Counted from the stretch's first letter, positions 6,917 to 64,000 are shown. The stretch is 64,000 bases of DNA from Candidatus Woesearchaeota archaeon (GCA_964344105.1 CAYFMD010000003.1:8066-72065), one strand, 5' to 3'. Made by a program: numbers and translations. The notes: generated from the sequence alone by a model not told the origin.

Positions 6917-7046
6917 TTTCTTGTTTTTCTTTTTAATTTTTACTTTATTTATTACTATTCGATGGTAATCTAATAAATTTAAAACTTTCTTGCTAATAAT
7001 TTTTACAAATAGAAATATTTATAAATAAAAATTATATTTTATTTAT

Positions 7047-18538: not shown

Positions 18539-18539
18539 T

Positions 18540-21108: not shown

Positions 21109-22190
21109 TTTATTTCTTCCTTTATTTTTTCTATGAAAATTTTTGTGTCAAATTGTCTTGCTCTTTTTTGGGAATTTTCCTTATAGAATTCTGGATCTTT
21201 TTCTAGGTTTTTATTTATTTCTTTGATTGATTCGACTATTTTGCTTTCATCTATATGATCTATAAGAATTCCCGTGTCTTTTGTTATCGTTTCTTTATAG
21301 CCACCCTCATTTGCTGCTATAACTGGTTTTCCTGAGGCCATAGCTTCTATGGGGCTCATTCCGAAGTCCTCATCTCTTGCTGTCGCTATAAGCCCCTTAG
21401 CATTTGAATATAGTTCTTTTAGCTCATCATCTGAAATCCAAGAAACAATTTGCACATTTTTTGGTTTAATTTTTTTTATGTGATTAGCATATTTCTGGAA
21501 ATGTTTGGCTTTTTCATAAGATCCGACTATTATTAGATTTTCATCTGGTAGTTTTTTGAATGCCTTTATCTGTAAATCTATTCTTTTATTTTCAAATAAC
21601 CTATTGACAGAAATCCAGTAATTTTTGTTTTTTGAATTATTGTAGTTTTTAGTGGTTGTTGGAGGATTGATTATTTTTGCCTCTTTATTGTAGTATTTTT
21701 TTATTCTATTTTTTGTATTTTGTGAGTTAGCTAATATTCTTGTTATATGCTTCAAGTAAGATATGTTTAATGTTCTGTTGAATTTTGCCCATAATTCATA
21801 TATTGGTCTTTGGTAGAATGGTAGTTTAGATTTTATGTAATCTTTGAATTCCCAGAGTTCGTTTAATGGAGAGTGCGCATACCATAAATTTGGTTTGTTG
21901 TTTATAGAACCTGACATTGCCCAATCTCCCGAGATTATGTATAAATCGTATTTGTTTTTTAGACTTAGATTTCTAAATTTTAGGAATGAAAGTTGTTGTT
22001 TGAATGGAGCATTTATTGGAACTCTTCCTATTGATTTTATTTTTATATTTTTGAAACCCATTTTTTCTATTTTTTCTAAGTTGATGTTTGTTGTGTATAT
22101 TGTTGCGTTAAGTTCTTTTGCTAGAGTTAGTGTTACAATTTCTGCTCCCCCTATATTGTCCATATAATTGTGGAATATTGCAATTTTCAT
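21090..22190 (-). CDS. glycosyltransferase family 4
   Basis: It contains MKIAIFHNYMDNIGGAE...DEDFGMSPIEAMASGKPVIAANEGGYKETI. Confidence 0.7.
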   Translation of the reverse strand: MKIAIFHNYMDNIGGAEIVTLTLAKELNATIYTTNINLEKIEKMGFKNIKIKSIGRVPINAPFKQQLSFLKFRNLSLKNKYDLYIISGDWAMSGSINNKPNLWYAHSPLNELWEFKDYIKSKLPFYQRPIYELWAKFNRTLNISYLKHITRILANSQNTKNRIKKYYNKEAKIINPPTTTKNYNNSKNKNYWISVNRLFENKRIDLQIKAFKKLPDENLIIVGSYEKAKHFQKYANHIKKIKPKNVQIVSWISDDELKELYSNAKGLIATARDEDFGMSPIEAMASGKPVIAANEGGYKETITKDTGILIDHIDESKIVESIKEINKNLEKDPEFYKENSQKRARQFDTKIFIEKIKEEIKCLNQN

Positions 22191-29381: not shown

Positions 29382-29400
29382 TTTATATCTATTATCATGT

Positions 29401-30156
29401 TTAATATCTATTTAGGAATTCGAAGACATATGGTTGTTCCATTGTTCGATTTTCTAAGATCATGACTAATGTGGTATCTTCTTCGAAGGCTATGAAATCT
29501 ACGTATAGTTGTCTATCTCTGGCTAGTTCAGTTATACAGTTTATGCAAATTAGGTTTGGATTTTCCTTATGAGAATCTGTTATGAAAGTTGCTACTTCTA
29601 TGATCTCTTCTAATGAGGAGTTAAGGGTTACAGGATGTTGATTTAGGTTGAAGTTTACTGTGTTTCCATTGCTTTCTATTATTACAGGTAATTCTGTTTC
29701 AAAAGTTAGTGATGTTGATTTTATTTTTGCCTTAGTTTGTGATGGCTCGTATTTTAGTTCTAGATTTTGAAAGTCTATTTGTGATATGCATTTTTCTAGG
29801 TTGGTATCTACATAACTGGCTAGCTCATTTTCTATTGTTTCTTTGAATGGTTGAGTGATAATTCCTTGATCGTAGTAGTATGGAACGAAGGCCCATTGCA
29901 TGTCTAAATGGTTTGTTGGTCTGTTAAAATATCCTCCTTGAATTCCGATTCTAATTAATGCATCTTTTGAGTTTTCTTCTAGACAATCTCTTATGAAATT
30001 TTGTACATTGTTAACTGATGGTTGAAGTCCTTGCTGATCAAAGTATTCTTTGCCTCTGTCTTCTGTTGTATTTCTTACAAAGAAAAATAGAACTATCCCT
30101 ATTACTATCACAATAGCTAATATGATTAGAACTGTTGTCTGTCCTCTTTTTTGCAT
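29401..30156 (-). CDS. pilin-like protein with class III signal peptide (paralog family member)
   Basis: It begins MQKRGQTTVLIILAIVIVIGIVLFFF and carries GIQGGY, PYYYDQ and C..C/CxxC motifs shared with 37622-38383. Confidence 0.55.
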   Translation of the reverse strand: MQKRGQTTVLIILAIVIVIGIVLFFFVRNTTEDRGKEYFDQQGLQPSVNNVQNFIRDCLEENSKDALIRIGIQGGYFNRPTNHLDMQWAFVPYYYDQGIITQPFKETIENELASYVDTNLEKCISQIDFQNLELKYEPSQTKAKIKSTSLTFETELPVIIESNGNTVNFNLNQHPVTLNSSLEEIIEVATFITDSHKENPNLICINCITELARDRQLYVDFIAFEEDTTLVMILENRTMEQPYVFEFLNRY

Positions 30157-30190
30157 GGTTAGATAAATAGATTGAGGTATTTAAGAGTTA

Positions 30191-31267
30191 TTAGTAGGTG
30201 TTTTCTTTTAGTCTCTGTTCGAATTTTGGAGAATAAATAAACTCTCCAACCCTTTTATCAATTTCTGGTTTCCATCTTTGCATTAGTGCAGGTCCGTTAT
30301 CACCAAATGCAGTTTCTAAGTCCTCTTGGCCCTCTGAAGTGTACCTTCTCCAATTTGAGTGATCAAATGATGTCCAGTGTTTTAATGTGTAATCAGTTAC
30401 TGTTCTTTGTGCTTGTTGTAAACTTATTCTGGAACCTTTTCCATCCAAAAGGAATCTTCCTGCTTTCCTAGCGTCATGGAAGTAAAATGCTTCATCTTCA
30501 TTGTTTGGTGCCCATAGCATTCTATATGATTCAATTTCTAGGGTGGTTTCTGCGAATTTTATTGGTATTGGCGTTTTTCCTTCTCGGGGAATCTCTATGT
30601 AGAAAGGGATGGTTTGGATTGGGTATCCTGATGAGGAATATATGTCAAATTCTGCATTTTCTCTGAATCTTTCATAGAAGAACATCATTAATTGATCCAT
30701 TGACATGGGATTAACAACATTCATTGGATGAGTTGGTAGGCCTTTATTATATTCTTGCCTTAATTCTTCAAGTAAATCTACTTCTGTAAATCCGGAAACA
30801 ATAACTTCATTTTCAAGAACGCTTGCTGACTGAGGAGTTCTTATTCCATTTCTTAGAACTATGTCTACCTTTCCAGTTTCTTCGTTAGGTACTAGTGCAT
30901 AATAAGGAATTTGGACATCTCTACCTGAAGTGAATAAATTATAACCTGCTTTTGCATCATCGCTTAGATTTTCTACAGCTTTTTTTGCTCCTACCGATCT
31001 TATATCAATTATCTTTTCTCTTACATCATCTGTGTAACTAAAATCTTCTGGTGTTATCCAGTATCTGAATGGGTCTACTGCTGGGGCTGTGGCTTTTGGT
31101 GTTGCCACAGTTGGTTTTTCATCTGGTTTTTCGGTTGGCGCTGGTTCGGAGTATTCAATTGGTGGAGCGACCGGAACTGGCGGGACTTTTGGTTTATCTT
31201 GTTCACATCCAATTGTGAAAGGTAGTAGAATTAGGGATGTTGCTAATATTCTTTGTACTAAATTCAT
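30191..31267 (-). CDS. secreted lipoprotein-like protein (358 aa)
   Basis: A signal peptide precedes a lipobox-like LPFTIGC, followed by a Pro-rich linker. Confidence 0.4.
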   Translation of the reverse strand: MNLVQRILATSLILLPFTIGCEQDKPKVPPVPVAPPIEYSEPAPTEKPDEKPTVATPKATAPAVDPFRYWITPEDFSYTDDVREKIIDIRSVGAKKAVENLSDDAKAGYNLFTSGRDVQIPYYALVPNEETGKVDIVLRNGIRTPQSASVLENEVIVSGFTEVDLLEELRQEYNKGLPTHPMNVVNPMSMDQLMMFFYERFRENAEFDIYSSSGYPIQTIPFYIEIPREGKTPIPIKFAETTLEIESYRMLWAPNNEDEAFYFHDARKAGRFLLDGKGSRISLQQAQRTVTDYTLKHWTSFDHSNWRRYTSEGQEDLETAFGDNGPALMQRWKPEIDKRVGEFIYSPKFEQRLKENTY

Positions 31268-31299
31268 AGAAATTAGAAAGATGGGAGATATTTAAGGTT

Positions 31300-33027
31300 T
31301 TATTTAGACTTTGCAACTATTTCTACTAGTTCAGATAGGCCTCTTGGGAACTCATCTAGATTTCCGTAAGCGCTTTGTTGATATTTATGTAGATAGCTTC
31401 CAGGTATTGTTATTGGTGAAACTCTTAATTCAGTGCTTGTTCCAGTTTCTCCCTTGTCCTTATAAGTTATCCTTCCAAATGATTTTTGACCTCCATCGTC
31501 AAAAGTCACAGTTGTTTGTACAGAGCCAACTATCATTGGACCTCTACTGAATATTTCTCTTTTTATAGTATCCACTTTATCTAATTCAGCCCCTCTTACT
31601 CCTCCTGATTCTAATCCTGTCCTTAATTCTGCAAATGTATCTGATGCTTCATCTTCAGTTATTGCTCTTTGGTAGGTGGTTTCTTCTAATAATTGTGAAA
31701 AGTGGTTGAATCCGTTTCTTCTAATTTGGTCTTCAGTCCATCCATTTGATCTAGCTATTTCTACAAAAGCATCTACTTCGCTTTGTAATGCATAAACTCT
31801 GGTGTCAGAAATGTGTACACCTAACCCTTCTCCTATCGGATTTGCATTACTTATTCCAAATCCAAATCTTGAACAGAAGGATCCTATACATACCCTATTA
31901 CTTTTATCAAATTCTACAAAGGTGGGTCCATTAGGAGTTGAAACTAATTTTCCGTTTGAAAATTTTGGAGGATTCAATTCATTAAATACAATTGTATTCC
32001 CTTTTGGGATTCTTGGATAATTAACACTTCCATCAAAGATGGTTATTTTATCATTACCATTTTTGATTCTAATGTTTTTACCATCTGCTATTGTAGTTAT
32101 TTTTTTTATTTTTGGTCCTTGGTCTAGTAAATCTATTTCAATATCATTTCCTTTTATTCTTAGGTTCTTGGTGTCTTCTTCTACACCCACTAATTGTATG
32201 TATTGTTCTGTTGTTGGTTTTTTTCTATTGAATAAAATTTCTGTCTCTTGATCTGAATTTATTCTTATCTCTGCAGCATTTGTTGTTAGTCTGATGCCTT
32301 TTCCTTTAAATTGTCCCCCCACAGGATCAATTGAGAAAGAAGATTCAGTGTCTGTGCTTGTGTCGAGTCTTTCAAATGATCTATCTCCTACACTAACTTG
32401 CGATCCTCCAATTAGTGAAAATTTTCCATCTTTGCTAATTGAGATAGATCCTTTGTTTGGCTTAAGTTGTATTGCCCCATTATCTTCTGTACTTGAAGGT
32501 ATTTGGCCTGATGTGTATCTTAAATCTTCGTCAACTTGACCTGTTGCATAATCTATAGTTGAGCTATCTTCTAATTCTAATTTTATTCCTTCTCCTTCAG
32601 TATAAGTCACTTCAGTTGTAGATTTTGGCAGATCATCTAGTTTGATCGTTATTGATCCATCACTTAGTGTATTTCTATCTATAAATTCTAATTTTGAACT
32701 CTCAAAACCAGAGAATCTCATTTCATTTACTTGTGAGTTTATTGATGCAACCTTTCCAAAATCAAAAAGGCTTAATCCCTCAGCCTTTCTTTTTTTAAGG
32801 GCATGTTTTGCTATTCCTGAGAATACTTGTCCTCTGTTTATTGATGGGTCTTCTAGAATTCTTTTTTGTTCACTTAAGGGTAATGTAGATACAGTTTCCC
32901 AGTCTCCAGAATCAATTGATTGTTGTATAAGCTCCTGAAGCTCTGTATCTGACATTTGTGTGAGGGATAGTGGTAGAACTAATATTATTCCTAGAATAAT
33001 TAGTAAATAGATATTTGTAAGTTTCAT
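31300..33027 (-). CDS. secreted protein (575 aa)
   Basis: It has an N-terminal signal/anchor MKLTNIYLLIILGIILVLPLSL. Confidence 0.45.
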   Translation of the reverse strand: MKLTNIYLLIILGIILVLPLSLTQMSDTELQELIQQSIDSGDWETVSTLPLSEQKRILEDPSINRGQVFSGIAKHALKKRKAEGLSLFDFGKVASINSQVNEMRFSGFESSKLEFIDRNTLSDGSITIKLDDLPKSTTEVTYTEGEGIKLELEDSSTIDYATGQVDEDLRYTSGQIPSSTEDNGAIQLKPNKGSISISKDGKFSLIGGSQVSVGDRSFERLDTSTDTESSFSIDPVGGQFKGKGIRLTTNAAEIRINSDQETEILFNRKKPTTEQYIQLVGVEEDTKNLRIKGNDIEIDLLDQGPKIKKITTIADGKNIRIKNGNDKITIFDGSVNYPRIPKGNTIVFNELNPPKFSNGKLVSTPNGPTFVEFDKSNRVCIGSFCSRFGFGISNANPIGEGLGVHISDTRVYALQSEVDAFVEIARSNGWTEDQIRRNGFNHFSQLLEETTYQRAITEDEASDTFAELRTGLESGGVRGAELDKVDTIKREIFSRGPMIVGSVQTTVTFDDGGQKSFGRITYKDKGETGTSTELRVSPITIPGSYLHKYQQSAYGNLDEFPRGLSELVEIVAKSK

Positions 33028-33132
33028 TCTCTTTTTATTTAAGAGTTAATTATGTGTTATAAAGATATCTTTGTTATTTATAACTATTATTAAGTAACAA
33101 CAAAAGGAAAGGTTTAAATAGTAGTTTTACAC

Positions 33133-33846
33133 ATGAATAATATGAGAAAAGCGATGAATGGATTAATGACAGGTGGTTTGGCATTGGTATTAGGCTATGC
33201 CGGATCTGGACTTGATACTCCTAGCTATGCACAGGATGCTCCTGAAGATGATAGAATAGCTCAGTCTGAAGGTAGATTGGAAAGTAGATTAGTTGATGTA
33301 GATAGTAAGTTAAGATATGATGTTTTTGATAGAATTTATGATGGGGAGACTATTGCTAAATATGCGAAGGTTAGTGATGAAGCTTTAGCTAGAGAATATG
33401 GTGATGGATATGTTGCTGAGGTTGGGAGGGTTAAGAAAGCTAGAGGATTTGCTATTGGTTATGGTGAAGCTTTAGAAGATGCTTTTGATAATCCTGAAGC
33501 AGTTATTTCTGCAATGGATGATTCGGATAGGGAACTATATGGGGAATTTGATGCTACTGAGACTTTGAAGAAACAAGGTAAAGATTCTAATTTTAGAGAA
33601 ATGTTGGGAGTTGCTGATAGTTATGAGTTCTCTGCTGATAGGGAATCTGATAAGTTAGCTGCATTTGTTGCAAAGTATGTTGCTGATGATATGGATGCTT
33701 ATGTTACAACTTCTTTAGGTGTTGCTAAGGTAGTCTTGGCTGCTGGCGATCCTTCATTATTGAAAGATGTTAGAGCTTCTAAGGTAGATCCAGAATCTGA
33801 AAGGTTTAGTAGAGCTACTAAGACACTTAGAAGAATTTTTAAGTAA
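33133..33846 (+). CDS. secreted protein (237 aa)
   Basis: It has a signal peptide ...GLALVLGYAGSG. It is convergent with the 928-aa gene. Confidence 0.4.
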   Translation: MNNMRKAMNGLMTGGLALVLGYAGSGLDTPSYAQDAPEDDRIAQSEGRLESRLVDVDSKLRYDVFDRIYDGETIAKYAKVSDEALAREYGDGYVAEVGRVKKARGFAIGYGEALEDAFDNPEAVISAMDDSDRELYGEFDATETLKKQGKDSNFREMLGVADSYEFSADRESDKLAAFVAKYVADDMDAYVTTSLGVAKVVLAAGDPSLLKDVRASKVDPESERFSRATKTLRRIFK

Positions 33847-36633
33847 TTATCTTACTAGTCCTTTTTTTCTGTCTCTTTTGTATCTCATCTGGCCTGTTCT
33901 ACCGAAGTATCTTGGTGAGTTCTTTTGGTATCTATATTGGGTTGTTTGAGTGGGAGTGTCTCTTCTTGTTGTGGGTGTTTGAGTAATTTGAGTGTTTTGA
34001 GGGGTTGAGGGATTTACGATTCTTTGTATGTATCTTGGATCATTTACAGTTCCTTGTATTGTTGGATCTATCCCACTAGTTGTGGCTACAACATTCCAAG
34101 TTCCTGGATGGAATACTCTTGATCCTGAAGTGTCATAAACTCTATTTGTAGAAGGACCTCCTAGGCTATCTAATATACTAGGCATTGCAGTGTGTACTAT
34201 TGGTGCTAGGTCTGGATTGATGATATGTGTCTGTCCGTTAACTGTTAGTTGGTATAGTCCAGATCCTCCCTCGTAACTTATGGTTCTTAGATCTCCTCCG
34301 TAAGAAGTTATTGAATTTCTTAGGAATTGAACAGCTCGATCTGCTTCTCTTACTGCACTGTCTCTAACTTCTAAGATTGATTGGCCCCTATTCAGTAATC
34401 CTGAAACGCTTCTTGTTAATTCAGAAGTTCCTGGAGATGCTATAGCTCCTGCACCTATGTCTACCATGTTTCCAATTATTTCTTCAGTTGCTTTTCCAGG
34501 GGTTCCTGATATGTCTATCGGTTTTCCTATTGTAGATTGTAACCTTTCCGATAAACTATCTAGTGCAGGAAGGCCCTCATAATAAATTTTACTTGCCTTC
34601 TTTCCTGCTGCTTCTTGCCCTACCCTTCCTGAAGATGAATAGGTAGTTAGATCAATGTCAATTGCATAATCTGAATCTGCAAGTCTTGCGTAGAATTTGG
34701 CTTTGTCATCTGGATCTCCTGAGTTATATAGTTTTAATAATTCACCATGCTCTACTCTTTCAACTTGGGTATTTACAGTCCCAACACTGTATTGGGTTCC
34801 TCCTTCAAATAGGTTTGCGAAAAATCCATCTTCTCTAGAAACTTGCCCAAATAATCCTGTTCCTCCAAATGTTACGGTATCAGATCCAGTCCTAGTTATT
34901 CTGGGAGCTCCGTAATTGTTTGAGGATATGCTGAACTGGTTTCCCCCATTGTCTGAGGTTATTGATCCTATGCTGTAAAAATTTCCAAAGTTAGTTGTTG
35001 ATGCAGTTTTTTTGTCTATAGAAACTCCTGCTGGAGATCCTCTGATTATTATTTCATCTCCATTGTATACTTTCCCTCCATTTATTCTTAGTTCTCCAAT
35101 ATTTCCATTTAGTTCTGCTTGCATGAAGCCTTGTTGGTATCTTCCTTTTTGTAATGTTGAAGAACTTATTCTATCTGTTAATGAATTTACTTGTCCTGCT
35201 AGTTGTGTACTTAACTCAGAAGTTATTTTTCCTTGTTCTGTTATTTGTGATATTGTTCCTCCTATTTGTTCTATCTCTTGAGATGATATTGCTGATGATA
35301 ATGCAGAATAAAGCTCGCTTTCAGGTGCTATTTGTAATTGTTCCTGTAATAAGCTTTCAATTAAGGGAGATGCAGTGCTCGCTAGTTGAAATCCTTCTAA
35401 GACTGAGAGTTCTGATTTATCTTTTTCAAGTAATGGTATTACTTGCTTGTAGCGGTCTACTTTTTGTTTTAATCCCTCTACACTATCTATTGCAGTTTTA
35501 GCAGCATCTGTTTCTAAGTCTCCTTGCAAGATATCAACAATTCCTCTAGCATTATCAAAAGTTCCTCTTTCAACACTTGATTCGAAAGTTTGTAAGATAT
35601 CATCATAAAGACTTCTTCCTTTTTGGTTCATAAATAGGAATCCTTTCTTTCCATCTTTTCCTATAAAATCAGGGTCGTATACTAGAATGTTTTCATCTCC
35701 CAAATCTCCTATTGCTTTTTCAAAAGTATCTCTTGATGAGAAGAATTTTGTATCTTCTCCAGTGAAGAATTGATGTTTATCTCTTTCTAGGTAAGCATGT
35801 GATAATGTGTCTATTTTTCCATCTTCATTGAAAGTTACTGTTGCAGGTTTGCTTTCTCCTTCTCTTTGATATGTACTTAACTTTGTTCCATCAGGTGATG
35901 CAAATCTTGACGCTGTTTCTGGATCTTCAGTAGCTAGTGATATTTTTGTTTTTTCAGAAGTTGAATCTATTGTTATATCTCCTCTTCCGTTCCATTTTCC
36001 AGACATTGGATCATCATAATCTGGTACCCTTTCTTCATTTAGCCTTACAAATTGATTTGTATCTGGGTCGAAGAAATACCCTCTTTGATTATCGGCTACA
36101 TTTAAGGTTACTGAACCATCTTTTTTCTTCATAATTAGTGAATGGCCATTCTCTGTTTTTTCATAAGTGACTTCAGTTATTGGGTTATCTGGGTTTTGTT
36201 GATTGTACAATTCTATATCGCTTCCTCTGAAATATGTTTTTGAATTCCCGAAAACACTTCCACTTCCAGGTCTTGTATTCTCATCGAATCCGGTCATTTT
36301 TACATTTCCATATTCTTCTCCATATTTTTTCATGAATTCAGATCTTTTTTCTGGATCTAAGTGTTCCCAAACTGATTGTTTTTTTGATTGGGTTGATTCA
36401 GCCTCCCAGTTTCTCCAGAAGTCTCCATTAATTTCATCTATTAGTGATTGTTGTTGTTCAGGCGTTAGTCTTTCAATATTGTCTGTTAGGATTGAAAGAT
36501 CATGGGTGTCTCTAAATCTATCAAGCTCTGTTTGAAATTGTTCATCTGTTAGTGGGTTTTCTTGTGATAAAACTAGGCTTATGGATAGAATGAATAGTAT
36601 GCTGATTACAGGTAGTATTTTTTTATAGTTCAT
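33847..36633 (-). CDS. large secreted protein (928 aa) with basic C-terminal tail
   Basis: It has a signal peptide MNYKKILPVISILFILSISLVLSQ. It overlaps the upstream pilin-like gene by 11 nt. It ends RYKRDRKKGLVR. Confidence 0.5.
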   Translation of the reverse strand: MNYKKILPVISILFILSISLVLSQENPLTDEQFQTELDRFRDTHDLSILTDNIERLTPEQQQSLIDEINGDFWRNWEAESTQSKKQSVWEHLDPEKRSEFMKKYGEEYGNVKMTGFDENTRPGSGSVFGNSKTYFRGSDIELYNQQNPDNPITEVTYEKTENGHSLIMKKKDGSVTLNVADNQRGYFFDPDTNQFVRLNEERVPDYDDPMSGKWNGRGDITIDSTSEKTKISLATEDPETASRFASPDGTKLSTYQREGESKPATVTFNEDGKIDTLSHAYLERDKHQFFTGEDTKFFSSRDTFEKAIGDLGDENILVYDPDFIGKDGKKGFLFMNQKGRSLYDDILQTFESSVERGTFDNARGIVDILQGDLETDAAKTAIDSVEGLKQKVDRYKQVIPLLEKDKSELSVLEGFQLASTASPLIESLLQEQLQIAPESELYSALSSAISSQEIEQIGGTISQITEQGKITSELSTQLAGQVNSLTDRISSSTLQKGRYQQGFMQAELNGNIGELRINGGKVYNGDEIIIRGSPAGVSIDKKTASTTNFGNFYSIGSITSDNGGNQFSISSNNYGAPRITRTGSDTVTFGGTGLFGQVSREDGFFANLFEGGTQYSVGTVNTQVERVEHGELLKLYNSGDPDDKAKFYARLADSDYAIDIDLTTYSSSGRVGQEAAGKKASKIYYEGLPALDSLSERLQSTIGKPIDISGTPGKATEEIIGNMVDIGAGAIASPGTSELTRSVSGLLNRGQSILEVRDSAVREADRAVQFLRNSITSYGGDLRTISYEGGSGLYQLTVNGQTHIINPDLAPIVHTAMPSILDSLGGPSTNRVYDTSGSRVFHPGTWNVVATTSGIDPTIQGTVNDPRYIQRIVNPSTPQNTQITQTPTTRRDTPTQTTQYRYQKNSPRYFGRTGQMRYKRDRKKGLVR

Positions 36634-37453
36634 TTGGTGGAAGTGTTATATCTTTAATTGAAGATTCAGATTCCGGAGATGGGATGAATATTACTTCATT
36701 TGTTCTATCTAAGCTAGCCTCTCTTACTTCTAAGAAGTTGAATGATCTAGGATAGGTGTCTGTTTTTTTAGATGATATTATTATGCTGATTATTTCTTCG
36801 TCGAAATTACTTATTTCAAAGTTTACATCATAAAGATCGGTTATATCTGATAAACAGTCAAGACAAACGGCATTTTGATTACTTATTAAGTATAGTTCTG
36901 ATGCTGAAATTAGATCATTTAGTTGAGAATCAATTTTATCATCACTTAGTTTTATGGTTGTTGAATCTTCTGCTTTTGAAATTGATAATGTTGTTGCTTG
37001 TTCTATGTATACAGAGTCTTGTTCAATATAAGGTAGTGAGTATATTTCTATCGCCTCTATGGTGTAATCGGGGAATCTTCCTCTAGTTTCACTTATGCAT
37101 ATTTGTGTATTTTCATCAATTATTAGCCCAAGATCAAGTTCAGTCACTTCTCTATTTGGAATCACTACATTATCATTGTACCTATATATTGGCATAAACA
37201 AGCCTACGTCACTTAGGTATGGCACGTGAGGTTCTTTTGAATATCCTCCTTGAGCTGAAACAAATTCTATTGAGTCTATGTATACTTGATTCATGCATTC
37301 TTCTGTGAATTGTTTAATGTTTTCAGACTCTTTATCAAATTCAGTTGAACCTAAATTACCATTATTTCCTAGTGTGAAAAATAGAATTATTGCTACTAGT
37401 GCTATGACTATTGCTAGGATTATAAGAATGGTAACTTGCCCCTTTTTCTTCAT
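36623..37453 (-). CDS. pilin-like protein with class III signal peptide (paralog family member)
   Basis: It begins MKKKGQVTILIILAIVIALVAIILFF and contains AQGGY and CLDCL motifs. Confidence 0.5.
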   Translation of the reverse strand: MKKKGQVTILIILAIVIALVAIILFFTLGNNGNLGSTEFDKESENIKQFTEECMNQVYIDSIEFVSAQGGYSKEPHVPYLSDVGLFMPIYRYNDNVVIPNREVTELDLGLIIDENTQICISETRGRFPDYTIEAIEIYSLPYIEQDSVYIEQATTLSISKAEDSTTIKLSDDKIDSQLNDLISASELYLISNQNAVCLDCLSDITDLYDVNFEISNFDEEIISIIISSKKTDTYPRSFNFLEVREASLDRTNEVIFIPSPESESSIKDITLPPNEL

Positions 37454-37496
37454 GTTTATTATTAGTTTAGAACGTATTTAAGGGTTTAGTGATCTT

Positions 37497-37625
37497 AATT
37501 TTTCACTAACATCCTTTTAACCCTTCTCACAATCTCACTTACAAGCCTTAACCCTCCCACCCACCCTAAGTAGTGAAAGTGAGAATGTTCGACCACCCTC
37601 TATTAAGAGGATGGTGAAAAATTAG
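37497..37625 (-). repeat. conserved ~125-bp intergenic element, copy A (leader/promoter of pilin-like gene 36623-37453)
   Basis: It is about 88% identical to 52938-53066. Both copies share ctaagtagtgaaagtgaga and a C-tract ccctcccacccaccc, which on the minus-strand sense reads GGGTGGGTGGGAGGG. Confidence 0.6.
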
Positions 37626-38383
37626 TATTTGTTTAGAAATTGAAAGACGTAGGGATCTTGGTCTTCGAATGATTTTGATATAACTACTAATGTACTTGTG
37701 TCTTCTTCAGACTCTAAAAAATCAACAAAAAGATTTTTTCCATCAGCCATTTCTGCTACACAACTTACGCATAGGTTTTCTGGATCTTCCCTATGTGTTT
37801 CTGCAATGAATGTAGCTATTTCTATTGCATCGTTTAATGGACTAGGTATTTCTACTGGGTGATTTTCCAAAGTTAGAGTTTCAGTTAGACCTTCTTTAGA
37901 TATTTGGATATTTAGATTTGTATTAAATTCAATTGATCCCTGATTTATTTTTGCAGTTGATTGCGAATTCTTATATTCTAAAGATAGTTCGCTGTTTCTT
38001 ATTTGACTTAAACAGAAATCTATATTGTCATCAAGGTAGTTTGCTAGTTCAGATTCTATCCTTTGATTTGATGGTTGAAGGATTGTTGGTTGATCGTAGT
38101 AGTATGGTATGAATGCTATTCCTATATCTTCTACTTTTGCTGGTTGATTGTAGTAGCCTCCCTGAATTCCTATTACTATGTTAGCATCTTCTGCTATGGT
38201 CTTTAAGCATTCTAATATTGATGATTGGACAACTGTTGCTTGAGATGTTGCTCCAATTTTTGAGAAAGCATTTTCAATATTTGATGATGAAGACTCATTG
38301 TTCAGGAAAGAGAAGATTAGGATTCCTACGATTACAACTACTGCTAGAATTATTAGAATTGTAACTTGTGCTCTTTTTTGCAT
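37622..38383 (-). CDS. pilin-like protein with class III signal peptide (paralog family member)
   Basis: It begins MQKRAQVTILIILAVVVIVGILIF and contains GIQGGYYNQP, PYYYDQ, CLSQI and CVSCV. Confidence 0.55.
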   Translation of the reverse strand: MQKRAQVTILIILAVVVIVGILIFSFLNNESSSSNIENAFSKIGATSQATVVQSSILECLKTIAEDANIVIGIQGGYYNQPAKVEDIGIAFIPYYYDQPTILQPSNQRIESELANYLDDNIDFCLSQIRNSELSLEYKNSQSTAKINQGSIEFNTNLNIQISKEGLTETLTLENHPVEIPSPLNDAIEIATFIAETHREDPENLCVSCVAEMADGKNLFVDFLESEEDTSTLVVISKSFEDQDPYVFQFLNKY

Positions 38384-50436: not shown

Positions 50437-50487
50437 AATATATTTTGCATAGCAAGCTTTATAATACTTCTATTTGCTCCTAATTGT

Positions 50488-52307: not shown

Positions 52308-52354
52308 TTGTTCTAAAAATAGAATAAAAATTATTAAAATAAAAAAATAAAAAA

Positions 52355-52861
52355 TTAAGCGACGGCAGTATCTGCTACACCGCAAAGCTTGTTAGTTTCT
52401 CCAACGATAGCAGCTATTTCTACAACCTTATTTCCTACAAGATCGGCAGTAATTTCTAGAGTTTCTAGCTCGTTAAGTGAAGATGCATCTACAGAATCTG
52501 CAACAACTTCTCCATCAGAAAGTACGCTTATTGCTCTTAAGTCTCCTCCGCCAGGGGTTCTCTTAACTAAAACTCCTGCATCAGTCCATACTCTCTCTAT
52601 AGGATCTGTGTCTATGTCACCGTCATGATCCCACAAACCATTACATGTTTGCTCATTTCCAGCAACATCATTACATGAAACGAATCTTAACTTCTCGATT
52701 TCCAAACCTACTGTGAAACAGTCGCTTTGGCCTCCGATTTCATCGGCTCCTTGTTGAACAGTTCCTTGTACAACTTGCCAAACAATTACTATAGCAGCTA
52801 AAACCAACAAGATTATCAACACTGTTGTGATAATTTGTGATTGTGCTTTTTTATTAAACAT
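52355..52861 (-). CDS. small secreted protein with class III (prepilin-like) signal peptide, Cys/Asp-rich globular part
   Basis: It begins MFNKKAQSQIITTVLIILLVLAAIVIVW. An AGGAGGT SD lies 12 nt upstream. It is preceded by copy B of the conserved element. Confidence 0.5.
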   Translation of the reverse strand: MFNKKAQSQIITTVLIILLVLAAIVIVWQVVQGTVQQGADEIGGQSDCFTVGLEIEKLRFVSCNDVAGNEQTCNGLWDHDGDIDTDPIERVWTDAGVLVKRTPGGGDLRAISVLSDGEVVADSVDASSLNELETLEITADLVGNKVVEIAAIVGETNKLCGVADTAVA

Positions 52862-52937
52862 AATGTCATACCTCCTTTCATGCCTCTTTTATCGTATAAT
52901 GAGTATGGTTTTTTAGTATATAAAGATTCTCTTCGTT

Positions 52938-53066
52938 GATTTTTCAATCATATCCCTTTAACCCTTCTCGCAATCTCGCTTACAAATCTTAACTCTCCCG
53001 CCCACCCTAAGTAGTGAAAGTGAGATTACTCGCCCACCCTCCCTTAAGAAGGTGATTAAAAAATCA
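52938..53066 (-). repeat. conserved ~125-bp intergenic element, copy B (leader/promoter of 52355-52861, containing the stop codon of gltX)
   Basis: It aligns to 37497-37625. The shared core is ccaccctaagtagtgaaagtgaga. Its G-tracts on the sense strand are GGGAGGGTGGG and GGGTGGGCGGG. Confidence 0.6.
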
Positions 53067-54269
53067 GATGTTTTTTTGCAAGTTATCTAGAACTTCTTTC
53101 AGATCTTTCATGGAAATTGTTTTGTCTGCTTCAGATAATCCTCTTTCTTCTACGAATTTCCAGAATGTTTCTGGTTTGTAGCCTTGTTTTTTGAAAGAGG
53201 CTACTGTTGGAAGTTTTGGATCATCCCATGATTTATATTTTCCAGATTCTATGTCTTTTGTGAAACCAGATGCTGACATTGTCATTTCTTTAAGATGTAA
53301 TCTTCCTATGAATTCAACTACTGGAAAGCTTTTTTCTTTCTTAAGTGCTTTATAGATTAGTTTTTGTCTCTCTGAATTATCTTTGTGATCTTTTCCTCTG
53401 ATTATATGTGTCATTCCTAGTTCAATATCATCTACAGTAACAGCTAGGTTCATTAATGGCCATACTCTGTACTTGTTTCCAGTTTTTGGATGTGCTGATT
53501 CGTTTATCCTTGCTAATGGGAAATCTCTCATTGCAGGATTTTTGTTTTTAATATCCGATTTGAATCTTAGTACTGCTTCACCTTCTTTGTAGCCGGGCTC
53601 TATCATTAATGACCATCTTTCTTTTTGTTCTTTAACATCTAGTTTTCTACATGGACATGCTTTGCTTTTTGAAATTAGTTCTTTAAATTTTTCTGGATTG
53701 CAAGTGCAAATATATGCATTAGCTGATTTGATTAGCTTTTCTGCATAATTGTAATAGATTTCTAATCGATCTGATTGGACTATTATATGTACGTTGTTCT
53801 TACATAACCATTTGCTTTCTTGCTCAATCATTTTGTAAGCTGGTTTGTATATGTTTTCTGGATTTGTATCTTCTATCCTCATATAGAACTTTCCATCATA
53901 GTTTTTTGCGTATAGGAAATTAGGTAATAAGGTAATTATGTGTCCAAAGGTTAGTGGTCCACTTGGAGATGGGCCCATTCTTGTTACGACCTTTCCTTTT
54001 TTTAATTTGGGTAGTTCAGGTAAGCCTTCTCTTTCTTTTCGGTAACCAATTATGTGTTCTAATTTTTTCAATTCTTCTTTTTGTTCCTCTAAAGATATGT
54101 TGTTGACTTCATCTAGAACCTCTTGTATTTTTGGAATTGTTTCTTTTATCTTATCTTTCTTAAGTCCTTCATTGAATAAACTGTTAATAACTGGACCTTG
54201 TGATGCTTTTCCAGAATGTTCTATTGCGTTTTTTAGAGTGTAGGCTTTTATTGAATCTTTTTTTACCAT
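53064..54269 (-). CDS. gltX: archaeal-type glutamyl-tRNA synthetase, catalytic core only (401 aa, no anticodon-binding domain)
   Basis: It has an archaeal N-terminal extension (YTLKNAIEHSGKA), a HIGH motif PSPSGPLTFGHI, RIEDTNPE, a Zn-like C.C...C.C, GMTHIIRGKDH and a degenerate KMSKS (MTMSAS). The protein ends about 60 aa after that motif. Confidence 0.7.
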   Translation of the reverse strand: MVKKDSIKAYTLKNAIEHSGKASQGPVINSLFNEGLKKDKIKETIPKIQEVLDEVNNISLEEQKEELKKLEHIIGYRKEREGLPELPKLKKGKVVTRMGPSPSGPLTFGHIITLLPNFLYAKNYDGKFYMRIEDTNPENIYKPAYKMIEQESKWLCKNNVHIIVQSDRLEIYYNYAEKLIKSANAYICTCNPEKFKELISKSKACPCRKLDVKEQKERWSLMIEPGYKEGEAVLRFKSDIKNKNPAMRDFPLARINESAHPKTGNKYRVWPLMNLAVTVDDIELGMTHIIRGKDHKDNSERQKLIYKALKKEKSFPVVEFIGRLHLKEMTMSASGFTKDIESGKYKSWDDPKLPTVASFKKQGYKPETFWKFVEERGLSEADKTISMKDLKEVLDNLQKNI

Positions 54270-61040: not shown

Positions 61041-62114
61041 ATGACATATTTGGGAGATTTGAGATCGAGGTTAGTAGATGTACACATTGATGATAGGGCT
61101 CCTGTTGTGACTCCCAGAGCTGTTAAGGAGGAGTTTGAACTAACTGTTCCTTCTGCTGAGACTGTTTTGGGATCTAGAGAAGGTATTGAACAAATATTGG
61201 ATAGGGGGGATGATAGATTGATAGTTATTACAGGGCCTTGTTCAATACATAATTATGATGCAGCTATAGAATTTGGTCAGCATATAAAAGATTTGTCTGA
61301 AGATGTGGGGGATAAGATGTTATTGGTTATGAGGACTTATTTTGATAAGCCTAGAACAAGGGGTGGTTGGGAAGGATTTATTGCAGATCCTTGGATGAAT
61401 GGTACTTATGATATGAATACGGGGTATAGATCTGCAAGAAAGTTGCTTCTTGAATTAGCTGAAATGGGTGTTCCTACTGCTACAGAGGTTGTAGATATTG
61501 GTAGCACGCCTAATTATATTGATGATTGTTTGGGTTGGATGTGTATTGGTGCTAGGACGGTTGAATCTCAGTTTCATAGGAAAGTTGCTTCAGGTTTGTC
61601 AATGCCTGTTGGAATGAAAAATAGTACTTCAGGAGATATTGGACTTGCGGTTGATGCGGTTTATAGATCTCGTCAGCCTTCTGTTTTGAGAGCTACTGAT
61701 GAGGATTTGAATCTTGTTAGATTAACCACTCATGGAAATAATTATACTCATGTAGTTTTAAGGGGTGGAAATGGCACTCCTAATTACCATTTAGAAGGTG
61801 TTCGAAAGACAGTTGGTATGTTGGAGGATGCTGGATTGCCTCCAAATGTGATGATTGATTGCAGTCATGCAAATTCTGGAAAGGATCATAGAAGGCAGCC
61901 TGCCGTTTGGGAGGATGTTATAAGTCAGAGGGTTAATGGAAATAATAATATTATTGGAGTTATGTTGGAGGCAAATGTTCAGGAAGGGAGTCAACCATTT
62001 AAGTATCGGGAAACTGATCCTGGAACTTTAAGCCCTTATATTTCAGTTACTGATTCATGCATTCCTATGGAGACTAATGCTAGATTAATTAGAGGAGCAT
62101 ATGCTAAATTATAA
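61041..62114 (+). CDS. aroG: 3-deoxy-7-phosphoheptulonate (DAHP) synthase, class I-alpha (AroG/AroF type)
   Basis: It contains LIVITGPCSIHN, MRTYFDKPRTRGGWEGFIADP, IGARTVESQFHRKVASGLSMPVGMKN, DCSHANSGKDHRRQ and VMLEANVQEG. Confidence 0.85.
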   Translation: MTYLGDLRSRLVDVHIDDRAPVVTPRAVKEEFELTVPSAETVLGSREGIEQILDRGDDRLIVITGPCSIHNYDAAIEFGQHIKDLSEDVGDKMLLVMRTYFDKPRTRGGWEGFIADPWMNGTYDMNTGYRSARKLLLELAEMGVPTATEVVDIGSTPNYIDDCLGWMCIGARTVESQFHRKVASGLSMPVGMKNSTSGDIGLAVDAVYRSRQPSVLRATDEDLNLVRLTTHGNNYTHVVLRGGNGTPNYHLEGVRKTVGMLEDAGLPPNVMIDCSHANSGKDHRRQPAVWEDVISQRVNGNNNIIGVMLEANVQEGSQPFKYRETDPGTLSPYISVTDSCIPMETNARLIRGAYAKL

Positions 62115-62206
62115 TTTTATATACCTCTTATTCTAGATAATAAAATGACAGAAAATAGTAAATCAAAGATTTCCTAACCTGTCATTTTAAAACACGGAAG
62201 AATAAA

Positions 62207-63724
62207 ATGACAGACATGAAGAAACTGGTTGAATCGTTGAGTCCAAATGAGAGGTTGATAGTGCCACATTTAGGTGATGGAGGCACTATGGTTGAGCTTT
62301 CGGATAAGGCTGATTTAGATAAAACTAGTACATTGCGTTCTTTGCAGTTACTTTCTAATAAAGCTGCTGTTGAAATTGAATCCAGGGATGAGAAATCGGT
62401 TGAATTGGGTATTAATGGTTTGTTGTATGTTAAGAACGGTTTGCCTGAGAGAAGATTGGCTAATTTAGTTGTTGATAAATCTAGTATTGGAATGAAAGAT
62501 GCTATCAAGCAATCTAAGTTGAGTGATAATGAGTTTAAGGCTGCCCTGGGTGTTTTGAAGAGAAAGGCTTTGATAGATTTGAAAGAAGGTAATCTGGTTT
62601 TGAATGGTACTAAGGAGGAGTTGAGTAAGAGGACTTTGGAAGAGCAGTTTTTAGAAACCTTGCCTAGAGGGTTAGATAGTATGGAGCCTGAGGAAAAGTT
62701 TGCTTTTGAAAATTTGAAATCTAGGAAAAATATCATTGATGTTCAGGAGAGGAAGGTTGTTGAGTATAAGGTTACTGATCTTGGGAAGAAATTGATGAAA
62801 GAGAAGTTTGGTGATAAATTGATTGAGAGTGTTACTAGTAATCTTATTAGTAGTGGTAATTGGAAGGGTAAGAAATTTAGAAGATATGATATTACTAGTC
62901 CTGTTCCGAAGATTCATGGGGGCAAGAGGCATTTTGTGAATCAGGCGATGGATTATGGTAAGAGAATTTGGTTGGATATGGGTTTCAAAGAAATGACTGG
63001 AGATTATTTGCAGCCAGGATTTTGGAATTTTGATGCGTTATTTACTGCACAGGATCATCCTGTTAGGGAAATGCAAGATACATTCTTTTTGGATAAAAAA
63101 GGAAAACTTCCTGAAAAAGAAGTTGTTGAAAAGGTTAAGATGGCTCATGAAGGTGGGATTGAAGGTAGTAAGGGGTGGCAGGAGAAATGGGATGAGGATA
63201 AGAGTAAGCAAGTTAGTTTGAGAACACATACTACTTGTTTAAGTGCTAGAACCTTGTTGGAAATTGGAAAGAATAAAGAATTCCCTGCTAAGTATTTTGC
63301 TTTAGGTAAATGTTTTAGAAATGAGACTGTTGATTGGAGTCATGGTTTTGAGTTTAATCAGACTGAAGGAATTGTTGTGGATGAGAATGCCAATTTTAGA
63401 CAGTTGTTAGGTTATTTGATTGAGTTTTTTAAGAAAATGGGTTATGAGAAGATTAAAATCCGTCCGGGATATTTTCCGTATACAGAGCCTAGTTTAGAGA
63501 TAGATGTTTTCCATCCTGTTCATAAGAAATGGGTTGAATTAGGTGGTGCTGGAATGTTTAGGCCTGAAGTTACTATTCCTATGTTTGGTAGGCATATACC
63601 TGTTTTAGCTTGGGGCCCTGGATTCGATAGAATTATCATGGAGTTTTTTGAGATGAATGATCTGAGGGATATGTATAGAAATGATTTGAATAAATTAAGA
63701 GATATTAAAGTTTGGGATAAATGA
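62207..63724 (+). CDS. pheS: phenylalanyl-tRNA synthetase alpha subunit (archaeal/eukaryal type)
   Basis: It contains HPVREMQDTFF, LRTHTTCLSAR, GKCFRNETVDWSHGFEFNQTEG and AWGPGFDRI. Confidence 0.9.
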   Translation: MTDMKKLVESLSPNERLIVPHLGDGGTMVELSDKADLDKTSTLRSLQLLSNKAAVEIESRDEKSVELGINGLLYVKNGLPERRLANLVVDKSSIGMKDAIKQSKLSDNEFKAALGVLKRKALIDLKEGNLVLNGTKEELSKRTLEEQFLETLPRGLDSMEPEEKFAFENLKSRKNIIDVQERKVVEYKVTDLGKKLMKEKFGDKLIESVTSNLISSGNWKGKKFRRYDITSPVPKIHGGKRHFVNQAMDYGKRIWLDMGFKEMTGDYLQPGFWNFDALFTAQDHPVREMQDTFFLDKKGKLPEKEVVEKVKMAHEGGIEGSKGWQEKWDEDKSKQVSLRTHTTCLSARTLLEIGKNKEFPAKYFALGKCFRNETVDWSHGFEFNQTEGIVVDENANFRQLLGYLIEFFKKMGYEKIKIRPGYFPYTEPSLEIDVFHPVHKKWVELGGAGMFRPEVTIPMFGRHIPVLAWGPGFDRIIMEFFEMNDLRDMYRNDLNKLRDIKVWDK

Positions 63725-64000
63725 CAACGTTAACATTTAACAAAAAAGAATTGGAAGAGAAGATTGGCAAGATAGATGATAGTCTTAGAATGAATATAGA
63801 TATGTTTGGTACTCCCGTTGATGGTGAGACTGATGAGGAGATTACTATTGAGGTTTTCCCAAATAGGCCTGATTTACTTTCTATGCAAGGATTTGTTAGA
63901 GGGTTCAATAGGTTCATGAGTAAAGAAGAAACTAGGAATTATGTTGCCGAGAAACCTGAGAATGGTTATAAGGTTATTATTGATAAGTCAGTTAAACAAG
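63721..64000 (+). CDS. pheT: phenylalanyl-tRNA synthetase beta subunit, N-terminal part (continues beyond window)
   Basis: It has an ATGA overlap with pheS. The sequence MTTLTFNKKELEEKIGKIDD...FPNRPDLLSMQGFVRG matches the B1/B2 start of archaeal PheT. Confidence 0.75.
   Translation, partial: MTTLTFNKKELEEKIGKIDDSLRMNIDMFGTPVDGETDEEITIEVFPNRPDLLSMQGFVRGFNRFMSKEETRNYVAEKPENGYKVIIDKSVKQ

What the first reader, a model, noticed from the sequence alone, without database searches (positions are those of the whole stretch)
52355..53066. Copy B of the conserved element overlaps the gltX stop codon and precedes a second, unrelated class III-signal protein
Copy B (52938-53066) contains the TGA stop of gltX (53064-53066) at exactly the position where copy A contains the TAA stop of pilin-C. 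In both places the element therefore starts at the upstream gene's last codon. Its G-tracts read GGGAGGGTGGG and GGGTGGGCGGG on the sense strand. A TTTATATA box and an AGGAGGT SD follow before the ATG at 52861. The downstream gene (MFNKKAQSQIITTVLIILLVLAAIVIVW...) has a prepilin-like N-terminus. Its mature part is Cys/Asp/Gly-rich and unrelated to the 250-aa paralog family. The element is thus associated with the signal type or function rather than with one gene family. The immediate downstream flank is a 47-bp pure A/T tract (52308-52354), where convergent transcripts terminate.
Basis: seen in the sequence. Interest (0 to 1): 0.6.

Follow-up and report, generated by a model that had tools for sequence, protein, structure and literature searches.

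The report
Small mobile G-tract hairpin insertion
The 130-bp "conserved element" after gltX is a recently inserted copy of a small palindromic mobile repeat with a G-quadruplex-type core, found in Pacearchaeota-type archaea; it is not a dedicated control element of pilin-like genes.

Summary
Copy B (window 52937-53066, minus strand) and copy A (37496-37624) are 82-83% identical (E 4e-34) and are the only two copies in the window. Both begin at the stop codon of the upstream gene.

Five related genomes (GluRS 77-90% identical) keep the same gltX end, the same TATA box and the same downstream pilin-like gene, but lack the ~133 bp. The ARS1180 genome (L017) likewise has an empty site for copy A. 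So only the element is an insertion. The downstream gene is not part of it.

Relatives of the element sit in unrelated places. A full-length 132-nt copy lies in frame inside TruB in another genome. Short core hairpins lie inside TGT and an ornithine decarboxylase, and in two intergenic regions.

The shared anatomy is 14-18-nt terminal inverted repeats, a 5' hairpin, and a central hairpin capped by GGGNGGGNGGGAGGG. No Rfam family, tRNA or transposase was found, and there is no clear target duplication.

Best reading: a non-autonomous MITE/RPE-like palindromic element. Its intergenic copies read T(G/A)A-T5-6 inward from both ends, giving a stop plus an oligo-T terminator. The link to class III signal genes is probably coincidental. 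The mobility mechanism is unknown.

The parts
52937..53066 (-). Copy B of the palindromic element (130 nt; the G-rich strand is the minus strand)
   Evidence: blastn against copy A; nhmmer E 3.4e-36; absent from orthologous sites in L023, L024, L013, L009 and L019
53053..53066 (-). Left terminal inverted repeat TGATTTTTTAATCA. It contains the gltX stop TGA (53064-53066) and a T6 run (53058-53063) that could act as an archaeal oligo-T terminator.
   Evidence: the repeat finder I2: 14 nt, 93% complementary to 52937-52950. The terminator role is inferred.
52937..52950 (-). Right terminal inverted repeat TGATTGAAAAATCA. On the plus strand it reads TGA-TTTTT inward.
   Evidence: the repeat finder I2
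53034..53055 (-). Hairpin 1 (TCACCTTCT / GGAGGGTGG), which carries the first G-tract block GGGAGGGTGGG
   Evidence: Conserved in A, B and L017. Its changes are C-G to U-G, which pair only on the G-rich strand.
52973..53026 (-). Central hairpin (ATCTCACTT / AAGCGAGAT, inner CTTA/TAAG) capped by GGGTGGGCGGGAGAG (53007-52993). This is the family core. In copy B the fourth G-tract is degraded to GAG.
   Evidence: the repeat finder I1; folds; homologous core-only hairpins in L013 and L009
52917..52930 (-). AGAATC + TTTATATA: the ancestral BRE/TATA of the downstream gene, 12 nt beyond the end of the element. It is not part of the element.
   Evidence: Aligns with AGAATATTTATAAA directly after the gltX stop in relatives
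52355..52861 (-). 168-aa protein with a class III (archaellin/type IV pilin) N-terminus. It is the ancestral neighbour of gltX.
   Evidence: TIGR02537 at 20.5 bits; orthologues follow gltX in L013, L023, L024, L009 and L019
53064..54269 (-). gltX-like gene (401 aa; GluRS catalytic core only)
   Evidence: PF00749; the NF003169 and TIGR00463 matches cover only the first ~390 of ~560 model positions
37496..37624 (-). Copy A (129 nt), between the stop of the 253-aa pilin-like gene and the TATA of the 276-aa paralog. It carries the intact motif GGGTGGGTGGGAGGG.
   Evidence: empty site in L017 with a 34-bp spacer

Best explanation
Copy B is one copy of a family of small, non-coding, palindromic insertion elements found in Pacearchaeota-type DPANN archaea. 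It resembles MITEs and Rickettsia palindromic elements.

When and where it inserted. About 133 bp landed between the gltX stop codon and the BRE/TATA of the pre-existing pilin-like gene. This happened after the lineage split from relatives whose GluRS is 90% identical.

Anatomy.
- 14-18-nt terminal inverted repeats form an outer stem.
- A 5' subterminal hairpin follows.
- A central hairpin has an apical loop that is a run of G3 tracts: a canonical G3N1 quadruplex motif in 5 of 7 family members, degraded in copy B.

Forms. The central hairpin also occurs alone, as 55-65-nt forms.

Properties of the ends. In the two intergenic window copies both ends read T(G/A)A followed by T5-6 when read inward. 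Whatever is transcribed or translated into the element therefore meets a stop codon and an archaeal oligo-T terminator. In copy B the TGA of gltX is the first triplet of the element.

What is shown and what is inferred.
- Shown: repeat homology, insertion polymorphism at five orthologous sites, the inverted-repeat and hairpin anatomy, and in-frame coding copies.
- Inferred: the element is selfish or near-neutral at this site.
- Inferred: the T-run terminates gltX transcripts.
- Inferred: the element moves or is copied through a strand-specific single-stranded hairpin intermediate or by template switching. No transposase and no target duplication were identified.
For: 1. A and B are 82-83% identical, and nothing else in the window or in 7.4 kb of extra same-genome sequence matches.
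2. Site B is empty in relatives. The gltX-to-next-gene spacer is 202 bp in the window, 77 bp in L023 (90% GluRS identity), L024 (86%) and L013 (79%), 30 bp in L009 and 23 bp in L019. The flanks align base for base.
3. Site A is empty in L017: 34 bp against 168 bp.
4. A full-length homolog in L017 (nhmmer E 1e-8 with the A+B model; 54-56% identity) sits inside the TruB ORF. It is a 132-nt, 44-codon, stop-free insert that is absent from the window, L015 and L016.
5. Core hairpins lie inside the TGT and ornithine decarboxylase ORFs and in an intergenic region of L013, and at the 5' end of a gene in L009. All are absent from the window orthologues.
6. Every G3N1-2G3N1-2G3 motif in about 200 kb of 35%-GC DNA lies in one of these hairpins. 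With the 3-sequence HMM exactly seven hits appear (E 0.023 or better) and nothing else up to E = 10.
7. Each full-length copy has its own terminal inverted repeats, which differ between copies but stay complementary. Eight of 28 consensus pairs show compensatory change.
8. No Rfam family, no tRNA, and no transposase Pfam family on the window ORFs scanned or in the precomputed annotations for most of the rest.
9. Precedents for in-frame palindromic repeats exist in Rickettsia and in Methanocaldococcus jannaschii (PMC10969869; PMC2229807 citing Suyama et al. 2005).
Against: - No unambiguous target-site duplication. TA flanks fit copy A and GA fits L017, but copy B is flanked by TG and CA.
- No partner transposase was identified.
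- Only two copies were seen in about 71 kb of this genome, and the genome-wide copy number is unknown.
- An exact 19-mer from the core found nothing in 185,579 species genomes or in the viral collection, and only one chance hit in metagenome contigs.
- A peptide-level search for in-frame copies found nothing real.
- The family is therefore rare or fast-evolving.
- Both window copies lie upstream of class III signal genes, which is unlikely under naive random placement.
- The termination and G-quadruplex roles are untested.
Confidence: 0.7

Rival explanations
1. The element is a cis-regulatory module, either an upstream activator site or a long structured leader or sRNA, dedicated to genes with class III signal peptides.
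For: - Both window copies lie 12-13 nt upstream of the TATA box of a pilin-like gene, with the G-rich strand on the sense strand.
- Only about 5 of 65 genes in the window are of this type.
- The repeats GYGAGATTGYGAGA and TCTCAC could be protein-binding sites.
Against: - The orthologous gene keeps the same TATA box, leader and Shine-Dalgarno sequence without the element in five relatives.
- Other family members sit inside ORFs or next to non-pilin genes.
- The element lies upstream of the TATA box and downstream of a T6 run, so it is outside the downstream transcription unit.
- There is no Rfam match.
Confidence: 0.1
2. The G-quadruplex upstream of pilin-type genes promotes recombination or phase variation among pilin paralogs, as the pilE G4 does in Neisseria gonorrhoeae.
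For: - Copy A has a perfect GGGTGGGTGGGAGGG next to tandem paralogs of 253 and 276 aa that are 26% identical.
- A G4 upstream of pilE is known to drive pilin variation (my own knowledge; Cahoon and Seifert appear in the reference list of PMC7565180).
Against: - Copy B lacks the fourth G-tract in its core.
- The gene downstream of copy B is single-copy in the window and unrelated to the paralog family.
- No silent pilin cassettes were seen.
- The paralogs are too diverged for gene conversion.
- Coding-region copies in other genomes have nothing to do with pilins.
Confidence: 0.04
3. The element is not mobile. Copy B arose from copy A, or the reverse, by a single ectopic recombination or gene-conversion event between two similar stop-codon/promoter junctions.
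For: - There are only two copies in 71 kb.
- They sit in similar contexts: stop codon, then T-run, then a TATA box 12-13 nt after the element.
Against: - Flanking sequence similarity stops at the terminal repeats.
- Homologs at five other, unrelated sites in three other genomes are each absent from the orthologous site in the window.
Confidence: 0.05
4. The element is an exapted terminator and insulator, kept because it separates gltX transcription from the downstream promoter and caps the mRNA 3' end with a stable hairpin or rG4. This is compatible with a mobile origin.
For: - Relatives have no T-run between the gltX stop and the next TATA box, whereas the element adds TGA-T6.
- The intergenic copies have inward T5-6 runs at both ends, while the in-ORF copy in L017 has none.
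- The fold is stable: -35.6 kcal/mol for copy B and -45.5 kcal/mol for copy A over slightly different flanks. With G-quadruplex energies copy A reaches -77.6 kcal/mol, while copy B stays at -35.6 kcal/mol.
Against: - The insertion is very recent and is absent in all sampled relatives, which do without it.
- There are no expression data.
Confidence: 0.1

Closest known systems
Rickettsia palindromic elements (RPEs)
   Same: They are about 100-150-bp palindromic repeats without their own ORF. They occur both in intergenic DNA and as in-frame, stop-free insertions in unrelated housekeeping genes. Their mobility mechanism is unknown (PMC10969869).
   Different: They are bacterial and share no sequence similarity with this element. 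They have no G-tract or quadruplex core and no core-only short forms. RPEs encode a conserved peptide, whereas a peptide search here found nothing.
[quoted passage not shown]
   Same: They are archaeal, small and palindromic, and some copies are fused into protein genes.
   Different: The lineage and sequence are different. I could not read that paper, so I made no detailed comparison. A G-quadruplex cap has not been reported for them, to my knowledge.
Prokaryotic MITEs such as Neisseria Correia elements and Sulfolobus SM MITEs
   Same: They are under 200 bp and non-coding, with terminal inverted repeats and insertion polymorphism between strains. They can bring terminators or promoters to neighbouring genes.
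   Different: MITEs normally show target-site duplications (often TA) and share their terminal repeats with a resident IS. Neither was found here.
REP/REPIN-RAYT elements and IS200/IS605-derived palindrome-associated elements
   Same: They are hairpin-based with no target duplication. They are strand-specific, being handled as single-stranded DNA, and their orientation is biased with respect to replication.
   Different: Those lack long terminal inverted repeats and depend on a Y1 (HUH) transposase and a short conserved target or tag. No such gene or tag was seen. The strand predicted by the IS608 model would be the C-rich one, whereas the wobble pairs here favour the G-rich strand.
pilE G4 of Neisseria gonorrhoeae
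   Same: It is a G3-tract quadruplex motif upstream of a pilin gene.
   Different: That one is a fixed, single-locus recombination initiator with its own sRNA promoter. This element is a dispersed repeat that is absent from close relatives.

Membership tests
MITE (miniature inverted-repeat transposable element) | Terminal inverted repeats | tested here: met
   Copy B: 14 nt, 93% complementary. Copy A: 18 nt, 83%. L017: 17 nt, 88%.
MITE (miniature inverted-repeat transposable element) | Small (<300 bp) and without its own ORF | tested here: met
   The copies are 129-137 nt. The window copies have stop codons in most frames.
MITE (miniature inverted-repeat transposable element) | Target-site duplication flanking each copy | tested here: inconclusive
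   TA/TA fits copy A and GA/GA fits L017. Copy B has TG/CA, which extends the inverted repeat instead.
MITE (miniature inverted-repeat transposable element) | Presence/absence polymorphism at orthologous sites | tested here: met
   Empty sites were found for A, B, the L017 TruB copy, the L013 copies and the L009 copy.
MITE (miniature inverted-repeat transposable element) | Many copies per genome | tested here: inconclusive
   Two copies in about 71 kb of the source genome and three core copies in 20 kb of L013. Whole genomes were not available.
MITE (miniature inverted-repeat transposable element) | Cognate autonomous IS with the same terminal repeats | tested here: not met
   No transposase Pfam family was found on the window ORFs scanned or in the precomputed annotations for most of the rest. 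Only this window was examined, so a partner elsewhere is not excluded.
RPE-like protein-coding palindromic repeats | In-frame, stop-free insertion into unrelated housekeeping ORFs | tested here: met
   TruB in L017 gains 44 aa. TGT and ornithine decarboxylase in L013 carry core copies. This applies to family members in relatives, not to copy B itself.
RPE-like protein-coding palindromic repeats | Conserved encoded peptide recurring in many proteins | tested here: not met
   A profile of the A/B translation searched against 1.84 billion proteins gave only 3 low-complexity hits. A search with the L017 insert peptide found only an insert-free TruB.
Known structured RNA family (Rfam) or tRNA | Covariance-model match | tested here: not met
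   There were no gathering-score hits except three ordinary tRNAs elsewhere in the window. The best local hit had E = 0.25 to an unstructured lncRNA model.
REP/RAYT or IS200/IS605-derived hairpin elements | Conserved short tag or target next to the hairpin, and a Y1 transposase in the genome | tested here: inconclusive
   No shared 4-5-nt flank was seen among A, B and L017, by my reading. No Y1 transposase was found in the window. The rest of the genome could not be searched.
Archaeal bulge-helix-bulge intron (considered for the TruB copy in L017) | Exon-exon and exon-intron helices forming the BHB motif at both junctions | tested here: not met
   The flanking exon sequences AAGGGGGA and TAAATATT cannot pair. 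The insert is in frame and stop-free, which argues for translation (plus my own inspection).

The most novel reading that the evidence does not exclude
The G-tract-capped hairpin is the functional unit of a previously undescribed class of archaeal mobile DNA. It would propagate strand-specifically as a single-stranded hairpin or G-quadruplex, or by G4-stalled template switching. In 7 of 7 copies the G-rich strand lies on the locally C-rich strand of genomes with very strong strand asymmetry. The intergenic forms would have evolved ends that act as portable stop-codon-plus-terminator cassettes, and might be exapted next to pilin-type promoters.
Probability: 0.2. Interest if true: 0.7.

Novelty: new variant of a known kind. 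Interest (0 to 1): 0.45.

Why it matters
- DPANN archaea have tiny, compact genomes that are thought to carry few mobile elements. A palindromic repeat family that invades stop-codon/promoter junctions and the loops of essential enzymes (TruB, TGT) shows ongoing small-scale genome and protein remodelling in them.
- The conserved core is a near-perfect G3N1 quadruplex motif held in a hairpin loop, inside 35%-GC genomes. This gives a concrete natural system for asking whether G-quadruplexes form and matter in archaea.
- For annotation, it warns against reading such repeats as regulatory RNAs of the neighbouring gene.

Tried and rejected
- Rfam at gathering and at E <= 10 thresholds found nothing relevant. 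ARAGORN found nothing at the element.
- Exact 19-mer scans of the core gave 0 hits in genome contigs, 0 in viral contigs and 1 chance hit in metagenome contigs. That hit (L001) has no flanking similarity.
- A degenerate G-tract pattern scanned against viral contigs gave 0 hits.
- blastn against the phage and plasmid collections gave no match.
- A protein-level search with the stop-free translation of A and B returned only low-complexity noise.
- A search with the L017 TruB insert peptide returned only an insert-free TruB fragment.
- Same-strain Logan/ENA contigs (L002-L008) carry an identical element, so they gave no variation.
- The 7.4 kb beyond the window start holds no further copy. The look-up for the last window gene failed.
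- A BHB intron was rejected for the TruB copy because no exon pairing is possible and the insert is in frame.
- Similarity to an origin-recognition box (GTTTCCA...TGGAAA plus a G-string in L009) was rejected: it occurs in one copy only, and other copies lie inside ORFs.
- C/D-box or H/ACA sRNA was rejected because no boxes are present.
- The search for a target-site duplication stayed ambiguous.
- A formal pair count on alignment A6 was not run, because copy A is one column out of register in the terminal stem.

Full report
**What is there**

On the minus strand, gltX ends with TGA at 53064-53066. A 202-bp spacer follows, and then the ATG (52861) of a 168-aa gene.

The spacer contains a 130-nt segment, 52937-53066. 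It matches 37495-37621 at 83.5% over 127 nt (E 3.9e-34). No other place in the 64-kb window matches.

In both copies the first aligned triplet is the stop codon of the upstream gene: TGA for gltX and TAA for the 253-aa gene. The G-tracts, the TATA box, the Shine-Dalgarno sequence and the ATG are at the stated coordinates.

Two details of the finding are inexact.
- The '47-bp pure A/T tract' contains one C and two G. The pure run is 36 bp, 52323-52358.
- The mature 168-aa protein has only four cysteines (my count from the translation).

The protein's N-terminus passes the NCBIfam archaellin/type IV pilin N-terminal model at 20.5 bits against a cut-off of 20. It is unrelated to the 253/276-aa paralogs, which are 26% identical to each other.

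**Organism**

The GluRS homologs are named Candidatus Pacearchaeota, Nanoarchaeota or Woesearchaeota MAGs. The window is 35% G+C.

**It is an insertion, and only the element is inserted**

I fetched the gltX neighbourhood from relatives. In all of them gltX is followed by the orthologous pilin-like gene (MFNKKAQSQIITTVL...).

| Locus | GluRS identity | Spacer from gltX to next gene |
|---|---|---|
| window | 100% | 202 bp |
| L023 | 90% | 77 bp |
| L024 | 86% | 77 bp |
| L013 | 79% | 77 bp |
| L009-L012 | 87% | 30 bp |
| L019-L021 | 77% | 23 bp |

The alignment shows the stop codon followed within 2-5 nt by (A/G)(G/C)(A/T)AATATTTATAAA. It also shows a conserved leader, AAAAGAGGCATGAAAGGAGGTAT. 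In the window about 133 nt are intercalated between the stop codon and AGAATCTTTATATAC.

The same holds for copy A. In L017 the ortholog of the 253-aa gene is followed after 34 bp (TAG-GTAAC-TTTATATA...) by the next paralog, against 168 bp in the window.

So the downstream gene and its promoter are ancestral. The element arrived later than the split from a 90%-identical relative.

**It belongs to a dispersed family**

An HMM of A+B found a full-length relative in L017 (Pacearchaeota ARS1180) with E 1e-8. That copy lies inside the TruB ORF, with its G-rich strand antisense to the gene.

It forms a 132-nt, 44-codon, stop-free insert (…LLKGDQSLTYKSSNPTRQIHSDIQPSHPPLDVQSESNSPTLPLKDGSKIDKYY…). The insert is absent from TruB of the window, L015 and L016.

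Shorter relatives consist of the central hairpin only.
- In L013 they lie inside the TGT ORF, inside an ornithine decarboxylase ORF (+11 aa), and between two divergent genes.
- In L009 one lies at the 5' end of a small gene.
- Each is absent from the orthologous site in the window.

With a three-sequence HMM, about 202 kb of window plus relatives gives exactly these seven hits (E 0.023 or better) and nothing else up to E = 10. Every G3N1-2G3N1-2G3 motif in that DNA lies in one of them.

**Anatomy**

Each full-length copy has terminal inverted repeats.
- Copy B: TGATTTTTTAATCA / TGATTGAAAAATCA.
- Copy A: TAATTTTTCAC... / ...GTGAAAAATTA.
- L017: ATCAATCATTGACCTAT / ATGGGTCAAAGATTGAT.

The repeats differ between copies but remain complementary within each copy.

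Inside the repeats comes a 9-10-bp hairpin (ACCATCCTCT/AGAGGGTGGT in A). Its differences among the three copies are C-G to U-G changes, which pair only on the G-rich strand.

Next comes a central hairpin with compensatory changes; 8 of 28 consensus pairs covary. Its loop is GGGNGGGNGGGAGGG.

With G-quadruplex energies switched on, ViennaRNA puts a quadruplex in the hairpin loop of A, L017 and the three L013 copies. It does not do so for copy B, whose fourth tract is GAG, or for L009, which has three tracts. Both strands fold well, as expected for palindromic DNA.

In the two intergenic window copies both ends read T(G/A)A + T5-6 when read inward. The copy inside TruB has neither a stop codon nor a T-run at its ends.

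**What it is not**

- No Rfam family matches at gathering score or at E <= 10, and there is no tRNA or tmRNA.
- No C/D or H/ACA boxes are present.
- There is no similarity in the phage, plasmid or viral collections.
- No transposase domain was found on the window ORFs scanned or in the precomputed annotations for most of the rest.
- The TruB copy cannot form a bulge-helix-bulge intron, and it is in frame.

**Most likely mechanism**

The evidence fits a non-autonomous palindromic insertion element of the MITE/RPE kind. In-frame palindromic repeats are known from Rickettsia (PMC10969869). They have also been reported for Methanocaldococcus jannaschii (Suyama et al. 2005, cited in PMC2229807).

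At gltX the element is probably tolerated because it supplies a stop codon in the right frame and a T6 run, and because it leaves the BRE/TATA of the next gene intact. It may insulate the two transcription units. That step is inferred.

How it spreads is unknown.
- No clean target duplication is visible.
- The hairpins are strand-asymmetric.
- In L013 a 34-bp direct duplication of the adjoining gene start flanks a partial element.

These features point either to a single-stranded, HUH-type route or to template switching at a stalled hairpin or G4. Both are speculation.

**Orientation**

The window shows extreme strand asymmetry. Third-codon-position GC skew is +0.71 in plus-strand genes and -0.35 (in the sense direction) in minus-strand genes, so the plus strand is G+T-rich throughout.

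In all seven family members the G-rich strand lies on the locally C-rich strand. This could reflect strand-specific insertion or selection against a quadruplex on one template strand.

In coding copies it also follows from translation. The C-rich sense strand encodes Pro/Ser/Thr/Leu linkers.

**The link to class III signal genes**

About 5 of 65 genes in the window have such N-termini. Two hits out of two is therefore nominally unlikely, at about 0.6%.

None of the five copies in other genomes sits next to such a gene. The promoter of the 168-aa gene is also unchanged by the insertion. I therefore rate a dedicated regulatory role at about 10%, and a Neisseria-like G4 recombination role at about 4%.

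**Limits**

- Only about 200 kb of related DNA could be examined.
- The collection-wide scans needed exact words and found nothing, so family size and range are unknown.
- No expression or biophysical data exist.

**Verdict**

This is a real, non-chance feature and a recent insertion of a small palindromic repeat with an unusual G-quadruplex-type core. It is a new variant within the known class of MITE/RPE-like elements, and it is not a pilin-specific regulator. The interest is moderate.

Noticed in passing
window 1-64000: The window has very strong strand compositional asymmetry. Overall GC skew is +0.23 on the plus strand. Third-codon-position GC skew is +0.71 in plus-strand genes and -0.35 (sense) in minus-strand genes, with the matching T>A / A>T pattern. 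Codon usage therefore depends on gene orientation, as in Borrelia. The whole window seems to lie on one replichore. This is unusual for archaea.
   Followed up: partly
window 53064-54269 (-): The 'gltX' product is 401 aa and contains only the class I catalytic core. It matches model positions ~2-390 of the ~560-aa archaeal GluRS models, below their cut-offs, and has no anticodon-binding domain. All Pacearchaeota relatives have the same ~400-aa form.
   Followed up: partly
L017 3886-3990: TruB of Pacearchaeota ARS1180 carries a second in-frame insert of about 31 aa (…ERGVGMNENIGSSAKETRGNSAGREIESGARTLDIKNGG…) besides the element insert. Its origin was not examined.
   Followed up: no
L013 12218-12410: A 34-bp direct duplication (91% identical) of the 5' end of the radical-SAM gene flanks a 49-nt insert. 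That insert contains TTCTTAAGGGGTGG, which resembles hairpin 1 of the element, and it lies directly next to a core hairpin. The window has a 51-bp empty site here (50437-50487). This may be a scar of the insertion mechanism.
   Followed up: partly
L018 10587-10634: TruB of another relative has a G-rich, low-complexity, sense-strand expansion (…DGEGGKDRGGGRDGEDGKD…) in the same loop where L017 carries the element. This loop seems to be a hotspot for insertions.
   Followed up: no
window 28158-38383 (-): This is a run of minus-strand genes interrupted by one plus-strand ORF (33133-33846). It holds three ~250-276-aa proteins with class III signal peptides (29401-30156, 36623-37453, 37622-38383). 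Between them are large proteins (358, 575 and 928 aa) with hydrophobic, signal-peptide-like N-termini and no Pfam hits. It is probably a pilus or surface-structure locus.
   Followed up: no
window 7013-7048 and 52323-52358: These are the two longest pure A/T runs in the window, 36 bp each. The next longest is 20 bp. The second lies between the convergent 168-aa and 127-aa genes.
   Followed up: no
L009 1-3000 compared with window 1900-4000 and 62000-64000: In the relative L009 the S3Ae/NDK block lies directly next to the PheRS block, and the GC skew changes sign at about 2.6 kb. In the window these blocks are about 58 kb apart and share the same skew sign. This points to a rearrangement, or to a replication origin or terminus, near this point in one of the genomes.
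   Followed up: no
window 15026-23389: A cluster of LicD, an N6-adenine methylase-like protein, a TylF-type methyltransferase with a sulfotransferase domain, and four glycosyltransferases. Its G+C is lower (0.31) than the rest of the window. It may be a horizontally acquired surface-glycan island.
   Followed up: no
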